A stretch of DNA of 63,763 bases, filler included, from Licmophora abbreviata (taxonomy: Eukaryota), in assembly GCA_900291995.1 (NCBI GenBank). It is 12 parts of 12 records of this genome, joined end to end, with 100 filler letters (N's around TTAATTAATTAA, not from the genome) between each part and the next. Parts side by side here need not be neighbours in the genome. Positions count along the whole stretch, not along the records: positions 24,219 to 30,314 come from OLMU01003091.1; 11 more parts are not named here. The stretch is one strand, 5' to 3'. Below are positions 21,884 to 38,173 of the stretch, in pieces. Positions within the stretch are counted from its first letter, which is position 1, and each line of letters starts with the position of its first letter. Under the pieces are notes generated by a model. That model ran no database searches. It saw only the letters and a program-made list of their open reading frames with translations, and had not been told where the DNA came from. Both the position numbers and the translations under genes were made by a program.

Positions 21884-22762
21884 ATGGGCTTCCTTTTCGT
21901 CAGCTATCATAGTGGAGAATCCTTGCTAGAAGCAATCATGAAGCCTTCCTTCGCAACTGATACCAGTCCCTTGCTAGGAGGACTAGGAAGTCCCTTTCTA
22001 GGAGGACTAGGAAATGATCATTGGCGTTTGCCTATTACCATTTCTTCTGGGGACGGGGATGAAGTGGATGACTTTAAACCCATGGATGCGGCGCTCACCT
22101 ACATAACCTTTCTGGGCGTGTTGTTTCTCTTGATTGGAATCCCGTTGTTTGCCGGCTGCTATGAGTCTTGTCGGGGTGGGGGTCGTCTAGTAGTCAATCG
22201 AGAGGGAGGTCGCGTTAGATTTGAGCTCGTCCAGCCGGGCTTACTATCGCGATCAGAAGTCTTGGCGCTACCGGAGATAGCGTACCATGCAATGATAACA
22301 GGCGAGGACGAATGCGCACCGACATTGACTGCCGCAGTCTACCAAGAGCCGGTGGATGCAGCTACGAAAATAACTGACAATGCTGAGGAAGTGCCGCACC
22401 AACTGACCGGTTCTCTGCACAGCGTGCCATTGGGATGTCCTGACGATGGCGAGACCCCCGAGTCAATACCAGCATCTATCGACAACGGCGACCTCGTGAA
22501 CTTGACCACTACCTGTTCTATATGTTCCATTTGTATACAAGACTTTGAAGAGGGCGAGCGGATACGAGTCTTGCCTTTGTGTCATCATGCCTATCATATT
22601 GAATGCATCATGCCTTGGTTGACCGAACGTCACGGTCAGTGTCCCATGTGCAAGGCTCGTGTTCTGGCCCCGCGACAAAGAAATCGGCGCGACACTGACC
22701 GCAGTCGAGGCAACGAGCAGCTTGAAGCGTCATGTCACGACACGCTAGATCATCCTGTGTAA
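21884..22762 (+). CDS. Transmembrane RING-H2 E3 ubiquitin ligase (possibly PA-TM-RING type, probably 5'-truncated by the gap)
   Basis: RING-H2 CSICIQDFEEGERIRVLPLCHHAYHIECIMPWLTERHGQCPMCK and one TM segment (ITFLGVLFLLIGIPLFAG). The frame is open back to the gap, and FLFVSYHSGESL resembles the end of a PA domain. Confidence 0.85.
   Translation: MGFLFVSYHSGESLLEAIMKPSFATDTSPLLGGLGSPFLGGLGNDHWRLPITISSGDGDEVDDFKPMDAALTYITFLGVLFLLIGIPLFAGCYESCRGGGRLVVNREGGRVRFELVQPGLLSRSEVLALPEIAYHAMITGEDECAPTLTAAVYQEPVDAATKITDNAEEVPHQLTGSLHSVPLGCPDDGETPESIPASIDNGDLVNLTTTCSICSICIQDFEEGERIRVLPLCHHAYHIECIMPWLTERHGQCPMCKARVLAPRQRNRRDTDRSRGNEQLEASCHDTLDHPV
21965..22012 (+). repeat. 24-nt coding tandem duplication (SPLLGGLG/SPFLGGLG)
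   Basis: agtcccttgctaggaggactagga followed by agtccctttctaggaggactagga. Confidence 0.85.
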
Positions 22763-23084: not shown

Positions 23085-24097
23085 ATGTCCCCTCATGATA
23101 ATGACACCGCGCCGATGGAAAAGGAAGACCGAAAAAGCCAGAACGAGCCCGGATTGGCTTCGGACGAAGTCGAGGAAGGACTGATGACGATTGTGAGCGT
23201 GTCTCAGGTTGCAGCGAGCAGTAGCATTGCTAGTACGGCTTCTGTAGACGACTTGTCTTCGTCTTTGGATCACGAAAGGAGTTCTTCTTCTAGTTTATGT
23301 CAGCGCGCAGCTTCCGGGAAGGTCTGTATCTGTCTAACGTGCGAGGCGACACGGACCCGTCTTCTCAATCGTCGCACGTCGGTGGGCACGACTGGCACAA
23401 ATAAGCGATCGAGAGACGAAGACACCGGCAGGCCGGAGGAATCGACGGAGAGAGTGAAGAAGGGAGCTCCGCTACCAATGCAACGCCAGTGTCGTCTTCT
23501 GATGGGACGCCCTCGACGCCCAACAAGCTTTCGCGGATGACCGATGCATGTAAGACTATCCTCGAATGCATCGGCGAAGATCCCTCGCGAGAAGGTTTAG
23601 TCAAGACACCCACTCGCTGGGCGAACGCACTGCTCTTCATGACCAAGGGCTACCAGCAAACGTGTCAGGAAGTGACTAACAACGCTATCTTTGAGGAAAA
23701 CCACGACGAAATGGTGGTTGTACGAGACATCGACATCCATTCGCTCTGCGAACATCACATGGTGCCTTTTGTCGGTCGCGTTCACATTGGATACATCCCG
23801 AACGGTAAGATAGTGGGACTTTCCAAACTGGCTCGTATTGCCGACATGTACGCTCGGCGGCTGCAAGTACAGGAGCGCTTGACAAGACAGATTGCCGATG
23901 CCATTGTGGAAGCTGTGGCTCCGCTCGGAGTGGCGGTCGTCGTGGAATGTTCCCACTTTTGCATGGTCATGCGAGGAGTTCAAAAGGTCGGCGCCACCAC
24001 GGTGACGAGCAGTGTGCGTGGATGCTTTGAGAGCAATCCAAAGACGAGAGCTGAGTTCTTTAGCATCATCCATGGGAATGGCATCAAGATGTGTTAG
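23085..24097 (+). CDS. GCH1: GTP cyclohydrolase I (core 23537-24097; upstream extension is out of frame)
   Basis: Motifs [48 protein letters not shown] and HFCMVMRGV. The 5' end is uncertain: ATG 23085 is in a different frame, and the in-frame ATG is at 23537. Confidence 0.92.
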
Positions 24098-26904: not shown

Positions 26905-27783
26905 ATGGGAGACAGCAACGACAACGAAAACGAACAATGGAGCTGCTGCAACGATACTCAGACGCTCTTCTTGCTATTTTACTTGGCCTACGGCGCATTG
27001 GCACTGCTCACGTGGAACATGCTGGTCGCCAAGCCTCTGCGACTCATGGCGGTGTTCCTACATGAGATTTCACACGCCGTCGCTTGTTGGGTATCCGGTG
27101 GAGAAGTGTTGGGAATTGAGGTTCACGAAAATGAAGGAGGGGTCACCAGATTCATTGGAGGATGTCGGGCGCTTATAATACCGGCAGGCTACGTTGGCTG
27201 TGGCATTTGGGCCATGGTGCTAGTCATACTAGCGGGTGGTCGAATGAGTGCGACGTTTGCCGCGGGCATGTTTATATCTGCGCTTCTAGTCACACTGTGC
27301 CATGCTCCCAATCGATTGCTTGTTTGGATCTGTCTTGTGTATGCTGCCATCACTATGGCATTCGTACTGATTGAATACACACTGTACAGTCCGATACTAC
27401 AGTTTGTGATACTCTTCTACGGCGTCTTTGTTGGCGTCTACGCCATCGCCGATATATGGGATGATGTGGTGTTGCGAGAGGTCAAGGGAAGTGATAGCCA
27501 TGCATGTCATGAGCAAGTCTGGCCCTGCTGCGCTCCGCGGTGCGTCGGACTGCAGTGGGCCTTGATGGCCGTCGTGTTTCAATTACTCGGGATATGGGTC
27601 GCCATTGTGGAGATGAGCGACGAATGTGAAGATATGGGATGGCTAGAATGTTTCAATCTGTCTCTAGATCTTGGAGACTTTGATCTATTCGAGCAGAATT
27701 TTGACTTTGATGGGTGGTTTCAGAATCATGGCGGCGGAGGAGGAGAGGGCTCGTCGTGGTGGAACTTCGACAACGGACCGTAG
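26905..27783 (+). CDS. Peptidase M50B-like intramembrane metalloprotease
   Basis: VFLHEISHA (HExxH), EGG.T, IIPAGYVG and KGSD, with several TM segments. Confidence 0.85.
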   Translation: MGDSNDNENEQWSCCNDTQTLFLLFYLAYGALALLTWNMLVAKPLRLMAVFLHEISHAVACWVSGGEVLGIEVHENEGGVTRFIGGCRALIIPAGYVGCGIWAMVLVILAGGRMSATFAAGMFISALLVTLCHAPNRLLVWICLVYAAITMAFVLIEYTLYSPILQFVILFYGVFVGVYAIADIWDDVVLREVKGSDSHACHEQVWPCCAPRCVGLQWALMAVVFQLLGIWVAIVEMSDECEDMGWLECFNLSLDLGDFDLFEQNFDFDGWFQNHGGGGGEGSSWWNFDNGP

Positions 27784-28371: not shown

Positions 28372-30314
28372 ATGTTCTCGAGACGAGGCAAAAAGCAGGA
28401 CGAGACGTCGCCGCTCTTGTCGCCTGACACTGCGACAGTCAAACCGCGATCCTTTCGTCGCAAGGGGGCTCGTCTCAGCGACCAGAACCGCATGAGTGTC
28501 CGTGGGAGTATCGCAGCCCCTCATTTTGAGTCGTCTGACAAACGTGTGGACCAGGGCAGCCACAAGCACGTGCTACATCCAGTCGATGCCTTGGCGCCGT
28601 TGGCGGCGGGAGGGATCATTTCCACGGCGGAAGGATACAAAACAGAGCCGAGACCTCCCTCTGCTGTCAAGTCGCTTCCTGCCTTTGCCCCCTTTCGTCG
28701 AAAGGCTCGCCATAGATCGTTCGTCCTCTGGTGGATCAACGAATTCCGTCACTGGTGGAAATCGAGTCGTCTCTTGGTTCGCCTGGCTGGTTTGTTCACG
28801 CTTGCCTTGTCGTTTGACTACATGGCCAAGATGATCCGTGTCCTGCCCTACAAGAAGAAGAGTAAGGCCATTGAGAAGAACACCCATCGTGCATTGAAAG
28901 TTGTCAAGCACTTGGGGCGTGGCGGTCCCATGACATTCTTTCTCAGCGTTGTCCATCCCTTTACGCGATCACTACGTATCTTGGTGGGAGCCTGGCGTTG
29001 GGTGGAGAGCGCACAGTGTCGACGAGGAGAAGTCGGAGTCGAAGAAACCATGGTGGGTTGAACGAAAACTATTTATAAAGCTTCTAGGCTTTGCTCGTAC
29101 GTACTCTGGCTCAATCCTTTGCACTGTTTGTTTTCTACATACAGGCATTCATCGGAAACAGAGTGTCCCGCATGTTGGCTCGCACCGTTGTCGACCTATT
29201 GGTGTTGTGGATCGTCATGCCCGGAGCCGAGGTACTTTTTCACCGCCTTCTTCCTCTTAGCGCGTGGCATCCCATTACTCTCTTCGTCATTCTCGGAATA
29301 CTCCGAGCCTGTGGTCCATATGCAGCTTCGTTCCAAGGCTCTCGCGCGGGGCGTTTTCTGACTCGCCAATTCTTCACGTCGTCCAAACATCGTTGGCAGC
29401 CCATCCAACGTGTACAGAATCTCAATCTCATGAGTGACGATTGTTGTGAACAGGACGAAATCTCTGAGACGGCCGACTTGGCGAAACTCGCCAAGCTTGT
29501 TGCCAAGGCGCTTGGCAAGAGCCAATCGATTGGTGTCGATGGCCTGGCGGGACAGTCGGATGCGCTTGCGAAAGAAGGATTCAAGCAGACTGGTGCCGGA
29601 TCTGGTGGGTATGCTGTGTATGAATGTCACCGACGGGTGTGGACGGACGCAACCGGCGACGAAGGCGAGGTCATGACTATACTGCTTCACGTGACCCCAT
29701 ACGGACCATCTATTCTTGACGTCATGCCCCGTTACGCCGTACTGGAGTTTGAAAACTCGGTCGATCGTCGCTCGCGCTGGTCAGAGTTCATATCCAAGCA
29801 GCTCTTCGAGGGACCGCCGCTTCTGGAGGGGTACGTCGCGTTCTGATTGAATACAGTCCTAGCTTGTCGTGTCGAGCCCACAGACTCACGCTTTGTTTTG
29901 CTTTTGCTGCTTCACCGCTCCACTTCGCGTACGCTCGCTCCCCACCACAGATACTGCTATCAGGGTGCTTTCTTCAGTCCCCATCACTTTGCTGAAATGA
30001 AGGAGTCGTACAACAAACAACTCTTGGCATACGAGAGTGCCTGCAAAGTTCTATGCAAGCCCCGCACTGGCCGCAAACCCAACCCACCGACCGACTTGTT
30101 GTCGCTCAAAGCGTTCTTGGCTGACGGCAAGCGTCCTCGCGTGCGCAACCGGAACCACCGAGAAGGACAACAGCTCCACAACGTCGTGGAGCAGGTCGCC
30201 AAGAAACTCGAGGGTATGATGGCGCTCAAGAGCAGCAACCCGGACGCATGCAGTGCTCCTCGTGGTGTCATTTTGTACTTTGAGGGTCTCGATTGTTCCG
30301 GTAAGTCGTCGACT
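28372..30314 (+). CDS. Membrane-anchored polyphosphate kinase 2 (PPK2)-like protein, 3'-truncated by the gap
   Basis: Exons 28372-29052, 29145-29830 and 29951-30314 (introns of 92 and 120 nt) splice to 577 open codons. These end in GVILYFEGLDCSGKSST, matching the PPK2 Walker A pattern (FEGxDxxGK). The N-terminal third has hydrophobic segments. Confidence 0.7.
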
Positions 30315-30414
30315 NNNNNNNNNNNNNNNNNNNNNNNNNNNNNNNNNNNNNNNNNNNNTTAATTAATTAANNNNNNNNNNNNNNNNNNNNNNNNNNNNNN
30401 NNNNNNNNNNNNNN
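30315..30414. other. Assembly spacer N44-TTAATTAATTAA-N44
   Basis: Identical 100-nt linker. Confidence 0.98.
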
Positions 30415-30625: not shown

Positions 30626-31463
30626 CTACTCGCTTGCAGCTCGGTTTCCACTTCCATTGTCTTTCTCTCCCTCGTCTCCGTAGGTTCCATTCTCGATCAA
30701 GGACCAAAGGTGGTTGGTGATCTGAAAGTCAGTGTAGTCTTTGGGGTCGATGCGAAAGTTGCGAATGCCGCCAGTCTTTTGGACCATCTGTGGGGGGAGA
30801 GACAGCGATATGATGAGATCTGAGCGTACAAATTCAGAGTGACTAAGCAGAGCAGCACTGCCTTCTTCTCTTTTGTTCATAGCGACTCACCAAGTGCCCC
30901 ACGAGCTCGTCGCGTTCATCGTAGTCCCACTTGATCCCAGTGGTACTCGCATACAAGGAAAGCTGCTGCTTCAAGCGCGGTACAGCCCGCATCCGCTCAG
31001 CCTCCACCGAATCAATGATTTCAATCGTCTGATTACACTCTTTCTGGTGAGAACGGATGCGCGCGTTGGTGTCCATCATGGTGCTCTCGAGATCGTCCAG
31101 GGCCTCCAGGAGGGCATCACGGTCGACCTGCAATTTCTGAAGCGTCAGCTGCATCTTGTAGAGATCGTCGCTTTCTTCCTTGCAGGCCTCCCGCGCAAGT
31201 TCAATACGAGCCAGCAATTCATTCTTGACGTGCTGTGCGTCGGAAACGAGAGTCGTCTGAGAGTCCTGCAGTTCTTCGTGGAGATTGTCGCAGCGGCGAA
31301 GCGACTCCAGCAAGGAAGTGACGTTTTTGGCGCGCATGGCCTTCATTTTCGCTCGGGTCTCTTCCCAGGACGTCGACATGGCGTCATCGTACGATGAGGC
31401 TCCCACAGATACGTAGGAAGAGACGGAGGTGTTGAGAAAATCGGTGCCTTTGCGTTTCACCAT
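30626..31463 (-). CDS. SPC24: Kinetochore Ndc80-complex subunit Spc24-like protein, 2 exons
   Basis: A long coiled coil, then LSLYASTTGIKWDY...GHL|MVQKTGGIRNFRIDP...FQITNHLWSLI, an RWD-type Spc24 tail. Phase-0 intron at 30788-30890 (GTGAGT...CCACAG on the minus strand). Confidence 0.75.
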
Positions 31464-34180: not shown

Positions 34181-37100
34181 TCACTCTAAACCGAATCCTT
34201 CGCATTCTAGAATAGCTCGACCAAGAAGCCGCGAGAGTTTGTCGAAATCGGCACCGTAATCGGGTAGAAGTAGTGTATTGAAGCACGTGTGCGAAGTGGG
34301 AAGTTGTGGCGAGTCTGCACCTGCCCGTTGGATCTTGAAGGGCAGTTCGCCTAGGCCCCCAATTGGGGCTTGACTACTGCCTGTGGCAAACTTTAGGAAT
34401 TTGATCTGGCTCTCCGGGGAAGATTCCTTGACAAAGCGCCAAAAGTTACGAATCACCTCTGAATCTTTATCGTATCCACCTTCGTACTCGGCGTTAGACT
34501 CGAGCGCATCGAAGTCCAATTCTGGCGTGCCGACCACGAGAAGTTCGAGCTCGTCAGGCTGGAAGAGATTGAGACTGGCGTTTTCCATTACTCGTCGGAT
34601 CCCACTTTCGAAGGCATCCCATTGCGGCTGAATACTGTCGACGAGGAGCCACTTGACGTACAGCAGCACGTACTCTTCCCGATTGTCGCTCGTCACTGGA
34701 ATGTCAGAGCCACCAGGCTTTAGCTCAATCTTCTGCTCCTGACCAAGATTCGACCACGTTACTTCGAAATTGAGACAGAAAATGTACTCTACGTCGTCAG
34801 ATTCATAGTCGAGGAGTTGCTTCAAGCCTTTCTTGAGTTCTTCGTCCACCAAGTCCTCCAGACCGAGAGGCAAACCCAGAAGCTTCCGAAAGACTGCCGT
34901 AGGAAAGTGAACGTCAAGGAGCACACCATTGTACAACGCCAACCCCACAAGCACGCCGCACAGCTCAAAGTTTTCATTGTCCCAAGTACAGTCCGAATTG
35001 AACCACGTGACATCAGATCCAAAACGACTAGACCACATGCCCGAGGTCACGTCAAAGAGAGCTTCGCTCAAAAGCTGAAAGAACTCTTTCGTGACGCCAC
35101 CGGCATCAATCCCCTCCTCGCCCTTAAACACAACTCGCAGCTTCTTCCGCAGCTCGTCGGGCTTTGCTTTCTTGACTTTCTCCAACGCCTGGTGCAAGAT
35201 GTGCTCACGCTCAATCTCCAGCACAAAGAAAGGATCGACGGTGTACGTCCCTTCGTCAGCGTTGAAGGTCACATCCTGCGTCACCACTTTGATCATCTCA
35301 ACTTGGTTCTCAATTTGCAGCAAATTCCGCTTAGCCCCCGGAGACAGGAGAAAAGGATTAGCACAGAGGAAGAATCGTGTCGCGCGTTGGGCCTTGTTTG
35401 CGTTCTTGAGTCGCGCCAAGTCGTCGTATAGGGCTTCGGCGGGAATTTTGTCAACACTTTCACTATAGAAATCGTTTGGTGATGCCAGATCGCTTACTCG
35501 TTCAGATGCCGAATGCAGCCAACGCAAGACGGCCACAATAACAGGAGTGGCACGCCGTGAAAGATGATTGTGCTGGACTCCGTTTTCGTCAACATCGAAC
35601 CGTAGACCGTTATCAAGCTGTGTGAGCAGCGGGCGAACGAGCATCCGGACAAAGAGTTCTCTGGAATAGATTGATGTTGCCCATGTAAGCAAGGCCTTAT
35701 ACCCTTCAAAAGGAAGACTGAGAATCGTTTCGCAGAGAGCAGTAATACCGTCACCAAGACGATCAAACATGACGTCCGTCCCAGCCATATTGCGATCGAA
35801 AAATTTTAGGTACAAAAGCAAACATCGGACAGTTTCGGGGTATATCATTCGCGCATTATCTGGGCGAATTTTTCCAAGTCCGGTCCTAATCCCATTCTCG
35901 ATTGCCGTGGCGATCGATTGTTGGAATTTAGGATTGCCGATGGAAATAAGCTTCGAATACATTTGATCCAGCTCAGCCGGATCCATAAAGAGACTGTTCA
36001 GGGCCGCCGGGCAGCTCAATAACTCTTCGGTTCTATTCGCGAGCTCCTTGCCAGCAGGACTAACATCAAGTGCACCGTCTGTCCCTTCTTTCTCTTCCAC
36101 CGTTTCCAGTAGTCCTTCCATACTCTCTGCGATTAAGCTGCCTGCGATGGCCTCGCTTTCGAGAGTCACAGAAAAATTACGGCGAAGGGCGCCAATGCCT
36201 GCGGGAGCGACAGCAATGCTCTCCTGACCGCCAGCAGCGATCGTTAACACTGTTTTGCCACTCAGAACCTGCTCTGGACCTGTCATCTTGTTTCGGCCCA
36301 TCTGCCAAACACCACCGATGTCGTCCAGGAGCAAAGTATGACCATCTCCCGCTTCTGCCGTCACGAATCGTCGACCAGCGCTAACTTCCGGATGGTCGAC
36401 AGGCTCGACACTTGTCGCAGGATCTTTAGATGTTAGGCCAAGTTGCCCTTCTTCGTTGTTCCCACAGCATAACAGCCGACCCGATCGAGTGACGAGCACA
36501 GTGTGCTGGTCTCCGCAAGCCGCATGTACGATAGCAACATCGTCCGCTAAAGACACGCCGTCTCCATCCCACACTGCCCAGTTCACAAACGGTTTCGGGC
36601 CATCCTTCGCAGCACGCGCACTGTCGGGCATATGAATCGGCACTGGCAACGTGACGGATTCAGGATAGGGTCTTCCGCAGCACCCCGAACGATTGTCACC
36701 CCAACCAAAGGCGGTCCCGTGAATCGTCAAGACGATCGCATGTCGATTTCCAGCAGAAACACCAACGAGCGGAAGGCCCTCGACAGCAGGGATGGGCGAG
36801 GGCACGTGATGATTGTCTTCCTTGTGATAGCCAGCAATGTCCGGTGCACCACAAGCTAGCAGCGACATGCGCGTAGTGAGGACCAGCGTGAAGCCGTGCC
36901 CACAAGCGACTGCGGACGCGTGACGGCCGCCGCCGAGCAGCATTCCTTGAGGACGACAGAACGAGGCTGACGTGTGAGCAGACTGGCCTGGAGGGCGACG
37001 GCCAAGCTGACCTTCTTTGTTGCTGCCCCATGTCAAAACAGAACCGTTGCTGGACAACGCCGCCGTATGATCAAAACCGCAGCTCACTTGCACAACACGT

Positions 37101-38173
37101 GTCTGTCCGATCGACTCCAACAATGCCGGCCTGCGAATGATTTCCTCGTCTCGACGGTCGGGATCAACAGCGCCCTCTCGATTGAGACCGCAGACGTATA
37201 CCTGCCCTCGCGTTGTAGCGCATGCCGTATGGCCTTGGCTGGTAGCGACGGACAATATGGCAGGGGCGCCAGGGCGACCAATCCGAGATTCCTTGCTTAC
37301 AAGGGCTTCTTCGACAGTCTTGTCTTCAGCGTCATCGTGCAGCGACTGAACACCGGATCCCCATGAAAAGACAAGAGAAGCGCTACTACTCTCGGGGAGC
37401 CGCAGCGATCCAGAAAGAGACCCCGACGAAACGAACAACTCCTGGTGCTTCGACAAGAGCATGGACCGCTCGGGCGTGTCCAGGCTCATGATCTCGTCCT
37501 CCGCCTCCTCATGTGTTCTAGTTTCCACGACGGGCGACAAGAGACCAGCCCCATTCTCATGTAAGTCCAGATCTACCTGAAAGCCTTCCGCTTGATCTGC
37601 TCTCAAGCGACTCGCCACCAACGCGCTGGGCCGACGTGCCTGACGTGCGTACTGTGCTCGACGATCTTTCCCTGCCGCCGTGACCTCTCCTGCCCCAGTG
37701 GCATCGCCCTGAGCCTCGGCTTCTCCTCTGCCTTCTCCTTCCGTCTCTCCTATTTTCTCCAAAGATGCACCAAGACTGCCATGTGACAGTGAAGACAAGA
37801 GTCGTTCGCGAGTACTCTGGCGCTGACGCTGCAAACTATCCGATCCACGCACCAGGCCAAGAGGAATCCGCGACGAATGAGCCAATTCAGCGGTTCGAAG
37901 ACGCTCGGACAGCTGCGACAAGGACTGATCGCGGCTTTCATCTCCGCACTGCGACAAGGCTGTATCGAGATGAGAGTGAATGTCTCCCAGGGCCGACTGG
38001 ATCGAATTGAAGGCAGCTCTTCCAACGCTGGCACGGCGCTGTCTCGTCCGTGGCGACGCTTCCAGGCCCCGTTCGACCTGAGCGAGCTGTTCATCGATAG
38101 TGCGCAAGTCCTCCTCGGCCGACGAGGGCCGTTCTACTTCGGGATCTTCCATGCTTCCGCTGGTGCTGCTCAT
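34181..38173 (-). CDS. HERC-type E3 ubiquitin ligase (RCC1-like repeats + HECT)
   Basis: RCC1 repeats (VSCGFDHT, WGSNKEGQLG, ACGDQHT) and HECT motifs FKGEEGIDAGGVTKEFF and LPTSHTCFNTLLLPDY, ending GFGLE. Confidence 0.95.
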   Translation of the reverse strand: MSSTSGSMEDPEVERPSSAEEDLRTIDEQLAQVERGLEASPRTRQRRASVGRAAFNSIQSALGDIHSHLDTALSQCGDESRDQSLSQLSERLRTAELAHSSRIPLGLVRGSDSLQRQRQSTRERLLSSLSHGSLGASLEKIGETEGEGRGEAEAQGDATGAGEVTAAGKDRRAQYARQARRPSALVASRLRADQAEGFQVDLDLHENGAGLLSPVVETRTHEEAEDEIMSLDTPERSMLLSKHQELFVSSGSLSGSLRLPESSSASLVFSWGSGVQSLHDDAEDKTVEEALVSKESRIGRPGAPAILSVATSQGHTACATTRGQVYVCGLNREGAVDPDRRDEEIIRRPALLESIGQTRVVQVSCGFDHTAALSSNGSVLTWGSNKEGQLGRRPPGQSAHTSASFCRPQGMLLGGGRHASAVACGHGFTLVLTTRMSLLACGAPDIAGYHKEDNHHVPSPIPAVEGLPLVGVSAGNRHAIVLTIHGTAFGWGDNRSGCCGRPYPESVTLPVPIHMPDSARAAKDGPKPFVNWAVWDGDGVSLADDVAIVHAACGDQHTVLVTRSGRLLCCGNNEEGQLGLTSKDPATSVEPVDHPEVSAGRRFVTAEAGDGHTLLLDDIGGVWQMGRNKMTGPEQVLSGKTVLTIAAGGQESIAVAPAGIGALRRNFSVTLESEAIAGSLIAESMEGLLETVEEKEGTDGALDVSPAGKELANRTEELLSCPAALNSLFMDPAELDQMYSKLISIGNPKFQQSIATAIENGIRTGLGKIRPDNARMIYPETVRCLLLYLKFFDRNMAGTDVMFDRLGDGITALCETILSLPFEGYKALLTWATSIYSRELFVRMLVRPLLTQLDNGLRFDVDENGVQHNHLSRRATPVIVAVLRWLHSASERVSDLASPNDFYSESVDKIPAEALYDDLARLKNANKAQRATRFFLCANPFLLSPGAKRNLLQIENQVEMIKVVTQDVTFNADEGTYTVDPFFVLEIEREHILHQALEKVKKAKPDELRKKLRVVFKGEEGIDAGGVTKEFFQLLSEALFDVTSGMWSSRFGSDVTWFNSDCTWDNENFELCGVLVGLALYNGVLLDVHFPTAVFRKLLGLPLGLEDLVDEELKKGLKQLLDYESDDVEYIFCLNFEVTWSNLGQEQKIELKPGGSDIPVTSDNREEYVLLYVKWLLVDSIQPQWDAFESGIRRVMENASLNLFQPDELELLVVGTPELDFDALESNAEYEGGYDKDSEVIRNFWRFVKESSPESQIKFLKFATGSSQAPIGGLGELPFKIQRAGADSPQLPTSHTCFNTLLLPDYGADFDKLSRLLGRAILECEGFGLE

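What the first reader, a model, noticed from the sequence alone, without database searches (positions are those of the whole stretch)
28372..30314. Membrane-anchored PPK2-like protein with an acidic dileucine (vacuolar) signal: a candidate non-VTC polyphosphate system
Seen: three exons splice to 577 codons. The protein starts MFSRRGKKQDETSPLL (ExxxLL), has several hydrophobic segments and an unassigned middle region, and reaches VILYFEGLDCSGKSST just before the gap. Established: FEGxDxxGK is the PPK2 P-loop pattern; PPK2s are typically soluble bacterial polyP:nucleotide phosphotransferases; eukaryotic vacuolar polyP is usually made by VTC; [DE]xxxL[LI] is a tonoplast/lysosome sorting signal. 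Inference: a vacuole- or acidocalcisome-tethered enzyme that makes polyP or recovers ATP/GTP from it. Only the first motif of the domain is visible.
Basis: partly seen in the sequence, partly recalled or inferred. Interest (0 to 1): 0.7.

Follow-up and report, generated by a model that had tools for sequence, protein, structure and literature searches.

The report
Diatom vacuole-signal PPK2-derived membrane kinase
Diatoms carry an unstudied membrane-anchored enzyme, descended from a bacterial polyphosphate kinase but with a rebuilt active site, a vacuole address tag and a new positively charged domain, which may be a second way for these algae to make or tap their phosphate and energy store.

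Summary
The gene is real: three exons, 577 codons, cut by a scaffold gap. Its 3' part lies on unplaced contig C6898 (about 47 residues missing; about 910 aa in all). It belongs to a family found across pennate and centric diatoms, with two paralogues here and a soluble sister group in Myxococcota. The catalytic domain has the PPK2 fold (Z 18.4 against 9.5 for thymidylate kinase) and keeps the catalytic Asp, Lys and Arg positions. It is not a class I-III PPK2: it has the Ser after the P-loop Lys that PPK2s lack (Ser/Thr in 166 of 169), has mostly lost one polyP-channel basic residue, and reads DRGPAG for DRSWY. The dileucine signal is conserved (16 of 19 and 25 of 31, against 1.9 and 4.3 by chance) and resembles the tested diatom vacuole motif. 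A new helical domain (net charge +23) is conserved on its basic faces. Best reading: an ATP-linked polyphosphate enzyme on the vacuole membrane, beside VTC, which the genome also has. Substrate, direction and location are untested.

The parts
28372..29052 (+). Exon 1 (codons 1-227): disordered N-tail with the dileucine, then the first part of the basic helical domain
   Evidence: in-frame stops just upstream of the ATG; 25 longer homologues
28402..28419 (+). Acidic dileucine ETSPLL (residues 11-16), predicted vacuole-membrane sorting signal
   Evidence: 16 of 19 and 25 of 31 full-length homologues carry [DE]xxxL[LI], against 1.9 and 4.3 expected; tested diatom motif EGTPLL (PMC11085791 passage)
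28669..29387 (+). Basic all-helical domain (about residues 100-308, spanning intron 1); absent from the bacterial relatives; no known fold matched
   Evidence: models; net charge about +23 and 24 columns at least 80% Lys/Arg; conserved faces opposite hydrophobic faces; best Z 6.8; not aligned to the bacterial profile
29053..29144 (+). Intron 1, 92 nt, phase 0
   Evidence: junction matches homologues
29145..29830 (+). Exon 2: hydrophobic hairpin of the helical domain and most of the alpha/beta domain
   Evidence: 107 longer homologues
29184..29330 (+). Hydrophobic helical hairpin (residues 241-259 and 271-289) with basic flanks; possible two-pass or re-entrant membrane segment, unproven
29388..29981 (+). 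Small alpha/beta domain (about residues 309-466, spanning intron 2), most of it shared with the Myxococcota relatives; fold not searched on its own
29831..29950 (+). Intron 2, 120 nt, phase 2, holds an in-frame stop
   Evidence: junction LEGYCY matches homologues
29951..30314 (+). Exon 3, 5' part: end of the alpha/beta domain, N-terminal helices of the PPK2-fold domain, P-loop; cut by the contig end
30279..30314 (+). Walker A FEGLDCSGKSST: PPK2-type Asp and Lys, followed by the Ser that canonical PPK2s lack
30315..30414 (.). Scaffold gap. Inferred to hold about 47 unsequenced codons and then G000:C6898 (L004, minus strand, 288 codons and a stop): Walker B WDRGPAGD, lid GKRL, PW..R motif, C-terminal membrane helix, tail with an N-glycosylation sequon
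   Evidence: identity profile against 58 homologues follows the window's part (rho 0.91; the paralogue as control -0.16); tree

Best explanation
A protein of about 910 residues, anchored by a C-terminal helix (perhaps also by a mid-protein hairpin) in the vacuole or a related acidic-compartment membrane, to which the N-terminal E-x-[ST]-P-L-L signal sends it. Its PPK2-derived kinase domain faces the cytosol and moves phosphate between ATP/ADP and polyphosphate. Shown: gene, family, fold, retained catalytic Asp/Lys/Arg positions, conservation of signal and anchor. Inferred: topology and location. Most speculative: because the P-loop has the Mg-ATP-type Ser and has mostly lost a polyP-channel Lys, ATP sits in the P-loop as donor and the enzyme runs mainly towards polyP synthesis, while the basic helical domain holds the chain and leads it to or through the membrane, in parallel with VTC. 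About 0.3 for synthesis and 0.15 for recovery of ADP/ATP from polyP.
For: PPK2 fold: all 28 listed Foldseek rows are PPK2s; Z 18.4, rmsd 2.9, 231 aligned to 3czp against Z 9.5, rmsd 3.4, 175 aligned for the best thymidylate kinase. Positions of F. tularensis PPK2 K66, D117, R118, R178 and C. hutchinsonii K258/R262 are kept; the lid Arg is at the exact spacing in 119 of 124. Class II signature Gly in 171 of 183. Bacterial sister group scores over the PF03976 cut-off in 15 of 15 scanned. C-terminal hydrophobic helix in 79 of 98 long tails, 0 of 14 bacterial tails; Lys+Arg 223 before and 72 after it; sequons in 27 of 36 tails against 13.3 expected. Dileucine 16 of 19 and 25 of 31; the Amphora orthologue has exactly EGTPLL, the motif reported to target a diatom protein to the vacuole. 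Helical domain: net +23; basic columns better conserved than hydrophobic ones (0.79 against 0.49; kinase 0.63 against 0.79); 9 of 11 helix windows have the conserved face over 100 degrees from the hydrophobic face, against 1 of 10 in the other soluble domains.
Against: Both substrate sites differ from every canonical PPK2 compared: Ser/Thr after the P-loop Lys in 166 of 169 (0 of 8 canonical), Lys/Arg at Lys+5 in only 14 of 169 (8 of 8 canonical; its loss cuts activity in C. hutchinsonii PPK2), DRGPA for DRSWY, and a 35-residue insertion in the lid. Only 7 of 15 full-length homologues reach the Pfam PPK2 cut-off; the C6898 part alone scores 20.6 of 22.3. The helical domain matches no polyP-binding or channel fold (best Z 6.8; PhoU 6.7; VTC 4.8), and most of its helices have mean hydrophobicity near zero, unlike ordinary membrane spans; the helix windows overlap and are not independent. 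Two members of the paralogue subfamily have a polar first hairpin segment. The genome already has VTC. 3 of 19 and 6 of 31 homologues lack the dileucine. No assay, localisation or expression result for this gene was obtained.
Confidence: 0.45

Rival explanations
1. An ATP-dependent kinase built on the PPK2 scaffold that has left polyP behind and phosphorylates another anionic acceptor at the vacuole surface (a nucleotide, an inositol phosphate or a phosphoinositide head group); the basic domain binds that acceptor or acidic lipids.
For: Ser/Thr after the P-loop Lys in 166 of 169 eukaryotic and 23 of 23 bacterial members, which PPK2s lack; the Lys+5 basic residue mostly lost; nucleotide-site Ser-Trp-Tyr replaced by Gly-Pro-Ala; 2 of the 3 Myxococcota genomes in which the family search scored this variant also carry canonical PPK2s, so it may do another job.
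Against: The lid Arg, the C-terminal basic pair and the Walker A Asp that serve polyP in PPK2 are kept; the whole fold, with the PPK2-type N-terminal helices and C-terminal PW motif, is PPK2 rather than NMP kinase.
Confidence: 0.3
2. A nucleotide- or polyP-gated anion or phosphate channel or sensor of the vacuole membrane: the helical domain forms the conducting unit and the kinase-like domain regulates it, with little or no turnover.
For: Inside-out conservation of the helical domain, which is nearly as conserved as the kinase (64 of 215 columns at 80% or more); basic flanks on both sides of the hairpin; pTM 0.82 suggests the domains pack as one unit.
Against: All catalytic positions are conserved as in an active enzyme and are shared with soluble bacterial relatives that lack the helical domain; no channel fold matched.
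Confidence: 0.12
3. The same enzyme, but sorted to another compartment (silica deposition vesicle, endosome or Golgi), for example supplying polyanion for silica formation.
For: 12 or more named diatom taxa and only two non-diatom labels, both doubtful. That acidic dileucines also serve endosomal sorting, and that the silica vesicle is acidic, is recalled and comes from no call.
Against: The motif has the same E-x-[ST]-P-L-L form as two diatom vacuolar proteins; several branches of the family are unnamed, so restriction to silicifying algae is not shown.
Confidence: 0.1
4. A thymidylate kinase-like enzyme, as UniRef names two homologues, or a bacterial contaminant or splicing artefact.
For: UniRef names for the Nitzschia and Cyclotella homologues; weak Pfam thymidylate kinase scores, E 0.066-0.25, in 5 of 15; GKS as in NMP kinases; the assembly does hold bacterial contigs.
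Against: Z 18.4 against 9.5; two GT-AG introns at junctions that match homologues; GC3 0.62 against 0.83 for a bacterial contig; eukaryotic rows form one side of a branch with support 100; complete transcripts exist for orthologues.
Confidence: 0.03

Closest known systems
Bacterial polyphosphate kinase 2 (PF03976), closest solved: class II PA3455 C-terminal domain (3czp), D. radiodurans class III (6aqe), L. fusiformis PPK2-II (9h8l)
   Same: Fold; Walker A Asp and Lys; Walker B Asp-Arg; lid Arg; C-terminal PW and basic-x3-Arg; class II signature Gly.
   Different: Ser after the P-loop Lys; Lys+5 mostly Gly; DRGPA for DRSWY; long lid insertion; extra alpha/beta and helical domains; membrane helix; sorting signal; a branch apart from the 8 canonical class I-III rows.
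Uncharacterised 440-500 aa PPK2-like proteins of Myxococcota (P0173 group; L011, L012)
   Same: Alpha/beta domain plus kinase, the same GKS, WDRGPAGD and GKRL motifs and lid insertion; hhalign probability 100, E 1e-62, 395 columns; 11 of 301 genomes of that phylum sampled.
   Different: Soluble: no helical domain, no membrane helix (0 of 14 tails). No function known to me for them either.
VTC complex (Vtc4) of yeast and algae
   Same: Proposed working plan only: cytosolic catalytic domain, C-terminal membrane part, polyP passed into an acidic lumen (passages of PMC12526157 and PMC11104272).
   Different: No homology: P-loop fold, no PF09359 hit in 15 homologues; one clear membrane helix rather than three; no SPX hit; a channel is not shown.
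Eukaryotic PPKs of bacterial type (Ostreococcus PPK2, Cyanidioschyzon PPK1-Nudix, Dictyostelium PPK1)
   Same: Bacterial polyP kinase retained in a microbial eukaryote (passages).
   Different: Those are recognisable canonical enzymes; the passages read mention no membrane anchor or vacuolar signal, and the 2013 survey found none in two diatoms.

Membership tests
PPK2 superfamily (PF03976) | alpha-beta-alpha P-loop fold with helical lid, closer to PPK2 than to thymidylate kinase | tested here: met
   model of homologue P0006: Z 18.4/18.3/15.8 to three PPK2s, 9.5 to the best thymidylate kinase; Foldseek
PPK2 superfamily (PF03976) | Walker A with catalytic Asp and Lys | tested here: met
   window 30279-30314; 169 family sequences in a set of 284, many of them fragments
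PPK2 superfamily (PF03976) | Walker B Asp-Arg | tested here: met
   WDRGPAGD on C6898; aligned with DRSWY
PPK2 superfamily (PF03976) | Lid Arg and C-terminal basic residues of the polyP channel | tested here: met
   R178-equivalent at exact spacing in 119 of 124; R..AR in all 101 matched, by a pattern that asks for a basic residue
PPK2 superfamily (PF03976) | Pfam gathering score 22.3 | tested here: inconclusive
   7 of 15 homologues reach it; own C-terminal part 20.6, own paralogue 25.9, bacterial sisters 15 of 15
Canonical PPK2 classes I-III | No Ser/Thr after the Walker A Lys (PMC11968564 section 3.4) | tested here: not met
   Ser/Thr in 166 of 169; 0 of 8 canonical rows
Canonical PPK2 classes I-III | Basic residue five after the Walker A Lys (K86 of C. 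hutchinsonii PPK2) | tested here: not met
   Lys/Arg in 14 of 169, Gly in 123; 8 of 8 canonical rows basic. This position lies in the unsequenced gap of the window's gene; the read gives Gly
Canonical PPK2 classes I-III | [DN]RS[WHY]Y after strand 3 | tested here: not met
   no sequence with the family P-loop has it
PPK2 class II | Signature Gly five after the Walker B Asp | tested here: met
   171 of 183; definition from PMC8776046 section 3.1
PPK2 class II | Falls in the class II clade | tested here: inconclusive
   quick tree with one class II row: the family is apart from all 8 canonical rows; sampling too thin
PPK2 (any class) | Phosphoryl transfer between polyP and nucleotides | not testable with these tools
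   needs an enzyme assay
Thymidylate kinase | Best structural and profile match | tested here: not met
   Z 9.5 against 18.4; Pfam E no better than 0.066
Diatom vacuolar membrane proteins with an acidic dileucine | [DE]xxxL[LI] in a cytosolic tail, conserved above chance | tested here: met
   form as
Diatom vacuolar membrane proteins with an acidic dileucine | Location on the vacuole membrane that depends on the motif | not testable with these tools
   needs GFP fusions
VTC complex | TTM/CYTH catalytic domain (PF09359) | tested here: not met
   no such Pfam hit in 15 homologues; the catalytic domain has the P-loop fold; separate VTC loci exist
CHAD, SPX or PhoU-type phosphate/polyP-binding helical domains | Shared fold with the basic helical domain | tested here: inconclusive
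   PhoU Z 6.7, rmsd 6.7, 145 aligned, below the level meaningful for helical bundles; CHAD and SPX not listed

The most novel reading that the evidence does not exclude
Diatoms have a second vacuolar polyphosphate machine unrelated to VTC: a PPK2 taken from Myxococcota, with its donor and acceptor sites swapped so that ATP sits in the P-loop, fused to a new inside-out helical domain that forms a basic conduit through the vacuole membrane. Being a reversible P-loop transferase, it could both store ATP energy as lumenal polyP and recover it in the dark, the step that the vacuolar energy-storage hypothesis for diatoms lacks an enzyme for.
Probability: 0.2. Interest if true: 0.88.

Novelty: new variant of a known kind. 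Interest (0 to 1): 0.62.

Why it matters
Reviews treat VTC as the polyP polymerase of most algae (passages of PMC7332688 and PMC12526157), and a 2013 survey found no PPK in two diatoms. Yet this family is present in pennate and centric diatoms, including a Thalassiosira pseudonana gene model, so it can be tested in a model species. A 2024 perspective proposes that diatoms bank energy as vacuolar polyP and turn it back into ATP in the dark, and says the storage behaviour is not yet shown; this protein is a concrete candidate for either step. In Phaeodactylum three of four VTC subunits did not localise to the vacuole, which leaves room for another enzyme. If the substrate proves not to be polyP, it is still a new kinase specificity on the PPK2 scaffold with a domain of unmatched fold.

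Tried and rejected
PF03976 search of the own genome found only two bacterial contigs (L001, L002), not this gene or its paralogue; a homologue as query found them. Pfam on the three exons alone gave nothing significant. The sequence just after the gap holds no part of the gene. No RNA holder listed for the stretch; the four DNA runs laid show no joints and none spans the gene. The helical domain found no fold match in three libraries and no Atlas hit at 0.9 (best 0.77, ABC membrane segments at ranks 6 and 30, leads only); the whole protein gave PPK2 clusters at 0.82-0.83, a lead only. The alpha/beta domain was not folded or searched alone. hhalign of the family against one class I sequence misplaced Walker B; the multiple alignment was used instead. 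The careful tree did not finish; both trees are quick ones. The paper with the F. tularensis substrate complexes was not held, so residue roles come from a review. Gene neighbours of the six GTDB loci were listed by a crude ORF script that often picked wrong frames; no conclusion was drawn. No Phaeodactylum name appeared; most hits are unnamed, so absence is not shown. Phages, plasmids and JGI metagenome contigs were not scanned.

Full report
Observation. The three exons 28372-29052, 29145-29830 and 29951-30314 give 577 codons without a stop. The product aligns with full-length homologues across both junctions (69% over 588 columns to P0006; 66% over 549 to the transcript-derived Amphora protein P0016). 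The gene ends at the end of contig C3091. One metagenome contig of depth 2 runs 16 letters further and reads T-G-G-L-V-E, the family's sequence, so the GTAAGT at 30301 is not a splice donor.

The missing end. A homologue searched against the own genome gave four matches: the two window exons, an intronless 862-aa paralogue on C302 (35% identical), and the 891-bp contig C6898, whose open frame holds Walker B, lid, the C-terminal motifs, a hydrophobic helix and a stop. C6898 is very probably this gene's 3' part. Over 58 homologues that have both parts, identity to the window's part and to C6898 rank together (rho 0.91), while the paralogue's C-terminal part does not (rho -0.16); the nearest homologues are the same; about 47 residues are missing. 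GC3 is 0.62 and 0.59. The join is inferred, not sequenced. Full length is about 910 aa.

Family and origin. Exon 2 found 107 longer proteins, the paralogue 173 (120 listed), a profile search 347 representatives (150 listed). Named members are diatoms: Seminavis, Amphora, Nitzschia, Cylindrotheca, Fistulifera, Mayamaea, Fragilaria, Gedaniella, Attheya, Chaetoceros, Ditylum, Cyclotella, Thalassiosira, including a T. pseudonana model truncated at 466 aa. Two labels are dinoflagellates: one is in the same 90% cluster as T. pseudonana and so probably contamination, the other a partial protein on a 2.2-kb contig. Most members are unnamed, so the range may be wider than diatoms. The profile also found 24 proteins and fragments (301-621 aa, most 440-500) that match only the alpha/beta and kinase parts. 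All 15 scanned pass the PF03976 cut-off. In quick trees the eukaryotic rows are one side of a branch (support 100 with 34 of 37 rows offered; 98), and eukaryotic plus bacterial variants stand apart from canonical PPK2s (99). Whether the eukaryotes nest inside the bacterial group is unresolved, so transfer from Myxococcota is an inference.

Catalytic domain. The model of P0006 (87-row alignment, pLDDT 84, pTM 0.82) matches PPK2s in all 28 listed Foldseek rows, and at Z 18.4 (rmsd 2.9, 231 aligned) against 9.5 (rmsd 3.4, 175 aligned) for thymidylate kinase. Against F. tularensis numbering and a review's residue list, K66, D117, R118 and R178 are kept, the last at exact spacing in 119 of 124, and the C-terminal K258/R262 pair of C. 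hutchinsonii PPK2 appears as R..AR. The class signature is Gly, as in class II, in 171 of 183. Three departures matter. A Ser or Thr follows the P-loop Lys in 166 of 169 eukaryotic and 23 of 23 bacterial members, whereas PPK2s lack it (0 of 8 canonical rows). The basic residue five after the Lys is present in only 14 of 169 (8 of 8 canonical). DRSWY is replaced by DRGPA, and the lid has an insertion of about 35 residues. That this Ser binds the Mg of ATP in P-loop kinases, and that polyP takes ATP's place in PPK2, is recalled knowledge, consistent. So the protein is PPK2-derived with both substrate sites rebuilt; I do not file it in classes I-III. Only 7 of 15 homologues reach the Pfam cut-off, which may explain why a BLAST survey missed it.

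Membrane anchor and signal. A hydrophobic 17-mer follows the kinase in 79 of 98 long C-terminal tails and in 0 of 14 bacterial ones; Lys+Arg number 223 before it and 72 after; 27 of 36 longer tails carry a sequon against 13.3 expected. This puts the tail in a lumen and the kinase in the cytosol (inference from recalled topology rules). [DE]xxxL[LI] occurs in the otherwise variable N-tail of 16 of 19 full-length homologues (1.9 expected; 7 of 26 rows with short or non-Met starts were dropped) and in 25 of 31 further ones (4.3 expected). Related sequences are not independent, but the flanks are not conserved. A passage in PMC11085791 gives EGTPLL as the motif shown to target a diatom protein to the vacuole and EASPLL in a vacuolar channel; the window has ETSPLL and the Amphora orthologue EGTPLL. 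The original study was not seen.

The new domain. Residues 106-320 of P0006 form long helices, net charge about +23, with 64 of 215 columns at least 80% conserved and 24 basic columns. No fold match was found (best Z 6.8). Conservation is inside-out: in 9 of 11 helix windows the conserved face lies over 100 degrees from the hydrophobic face, against 1 of 10 windows in the alpha/beta and kinase domains, that one being the substrate-binding lid. The windows overlap. This fits a bundle with lipid-facing variable sides and a basic interior, or a soluble bundle with a large anion-binding surface; most helices are too polar on average for ordinary membrane spans. A hairpin at 246-296 is more hydrophobic, with basic flanks, and would keep the topology whether it crosses twice or not at all.

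Mechanism. Shown: gene, family, fold, motifs, conservation of signal and anchor. Inferred: cytosolic kinase on the vacuole membrane. Proposed (0.45): phosphoryl transfer between ATP/ADP and polyP, more likely synthesis given the ATP-type P-loop, with the basic domain holding or threading the chain. Rivals: another acceptor (0.3), a gated channel or sensor (0.12), another compartment (0.1), thymidylate kinase or artefact (0.03). The genome has two VTC-domain loci, one with catalytic and membrane parts, so this would act beside VTC.

Literature. Searches listed no paper describing this family; the library lacks most subscription papers, and no supplements were read, where gene lists could name it. 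JGI's automatic labels already call many members PPK2, UniRef calls two thymidylate kinase. Seen as passages: PMC3680246, PMC7283521, PMC7332688, PMC13086504, PMC11085791, PMC11104272, PMC12924338, PMC12526157, PMC5012681 (counts eukaryotic ppk2 transcripts and says no eukaryotic ppk had been characterised). PMC8776046: passages, outline, first part of section 3 and section 3.3. PMC11968564: passages and section 3.4. All others: listing only.

Verdict. Observation confirmed, interpretation partly supported. A new variant of a known kind: a PPK2-derived membrane kinase of diatoms with a vacuolar signal and an unmatched basic domain, function untested but directly testable. Interest 0.62.

Noticed in passing
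L006:1381-3969 (-), G000:C302: Intronless 862-aa paralogue of the second subfamily, with the same kinase motifs, a C-terminal hydrophobic helix and dileucine-type motifs at residues 73 and 92; its hairpin's first segment is polar.
   Followed up: partly
L001 (G000:C3503), L002 (G000:C2216): Canonical class I PPK2 genes on intronless high-GC contigs (GC3 0.83 for L001) beside genes that look bacterial (recalled: uvrB, rplM/rpsI): the assembly holds bacterial contamination.
   Followed up: partly
L016:5001-5669: A Myxococcales PPK2 that looks intermediate: GKSST P-loop and GKR lid like this family, but DRSYYG Walker B and a short lid like class II.
   Followed up: partly
L008 (G000:C459), L009 (G000:C5377): Two VTC-domain loci; on C459 a second open frame with the same EPKTYFANERTF membrane-domain motif lies next to the VTC gene.
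   Followed up: no
window 21884-22762 (+): ORF with one hydrophobic segment and a C-terminal RING-H2-like Cys/His pattern (recalled) that also has an acidic dileucine, DTSPLL, near its start; it begins right after a gap and may be 5'-truncated.
   Followed up: no
window 23537-24097 (+), 26905-27783 (+), 30843-31463 (-), 34181-38173 (-): Neighbours look like ordinary eukaryotic genes by eye (recalled, not searched): GTP cyclohydrolase I, an HExxH membrane peptidase, a coiled-coil kinetochore-like protein, an RCC1-HECT ligase. None suggests a phosphate cluster.
   Followed up: no
window, 11 gaps (e.g. 30315-30414): Each gap is 44 N, a 12-base spacer and 44 N; the two read carry TTAATTAATTAA. The gap length is nominal: this one must hold about 1 kb if C6898 belongs in it.
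   Followed up: partly
P0374, P0066: Database labels Alexandrium tamarense and Symbiodinium microadriaticum on family members; the first clusters at 90% with the T. pseudonana protein and is probably diatom contamination, the second is unresolved.
   Followed up: partly
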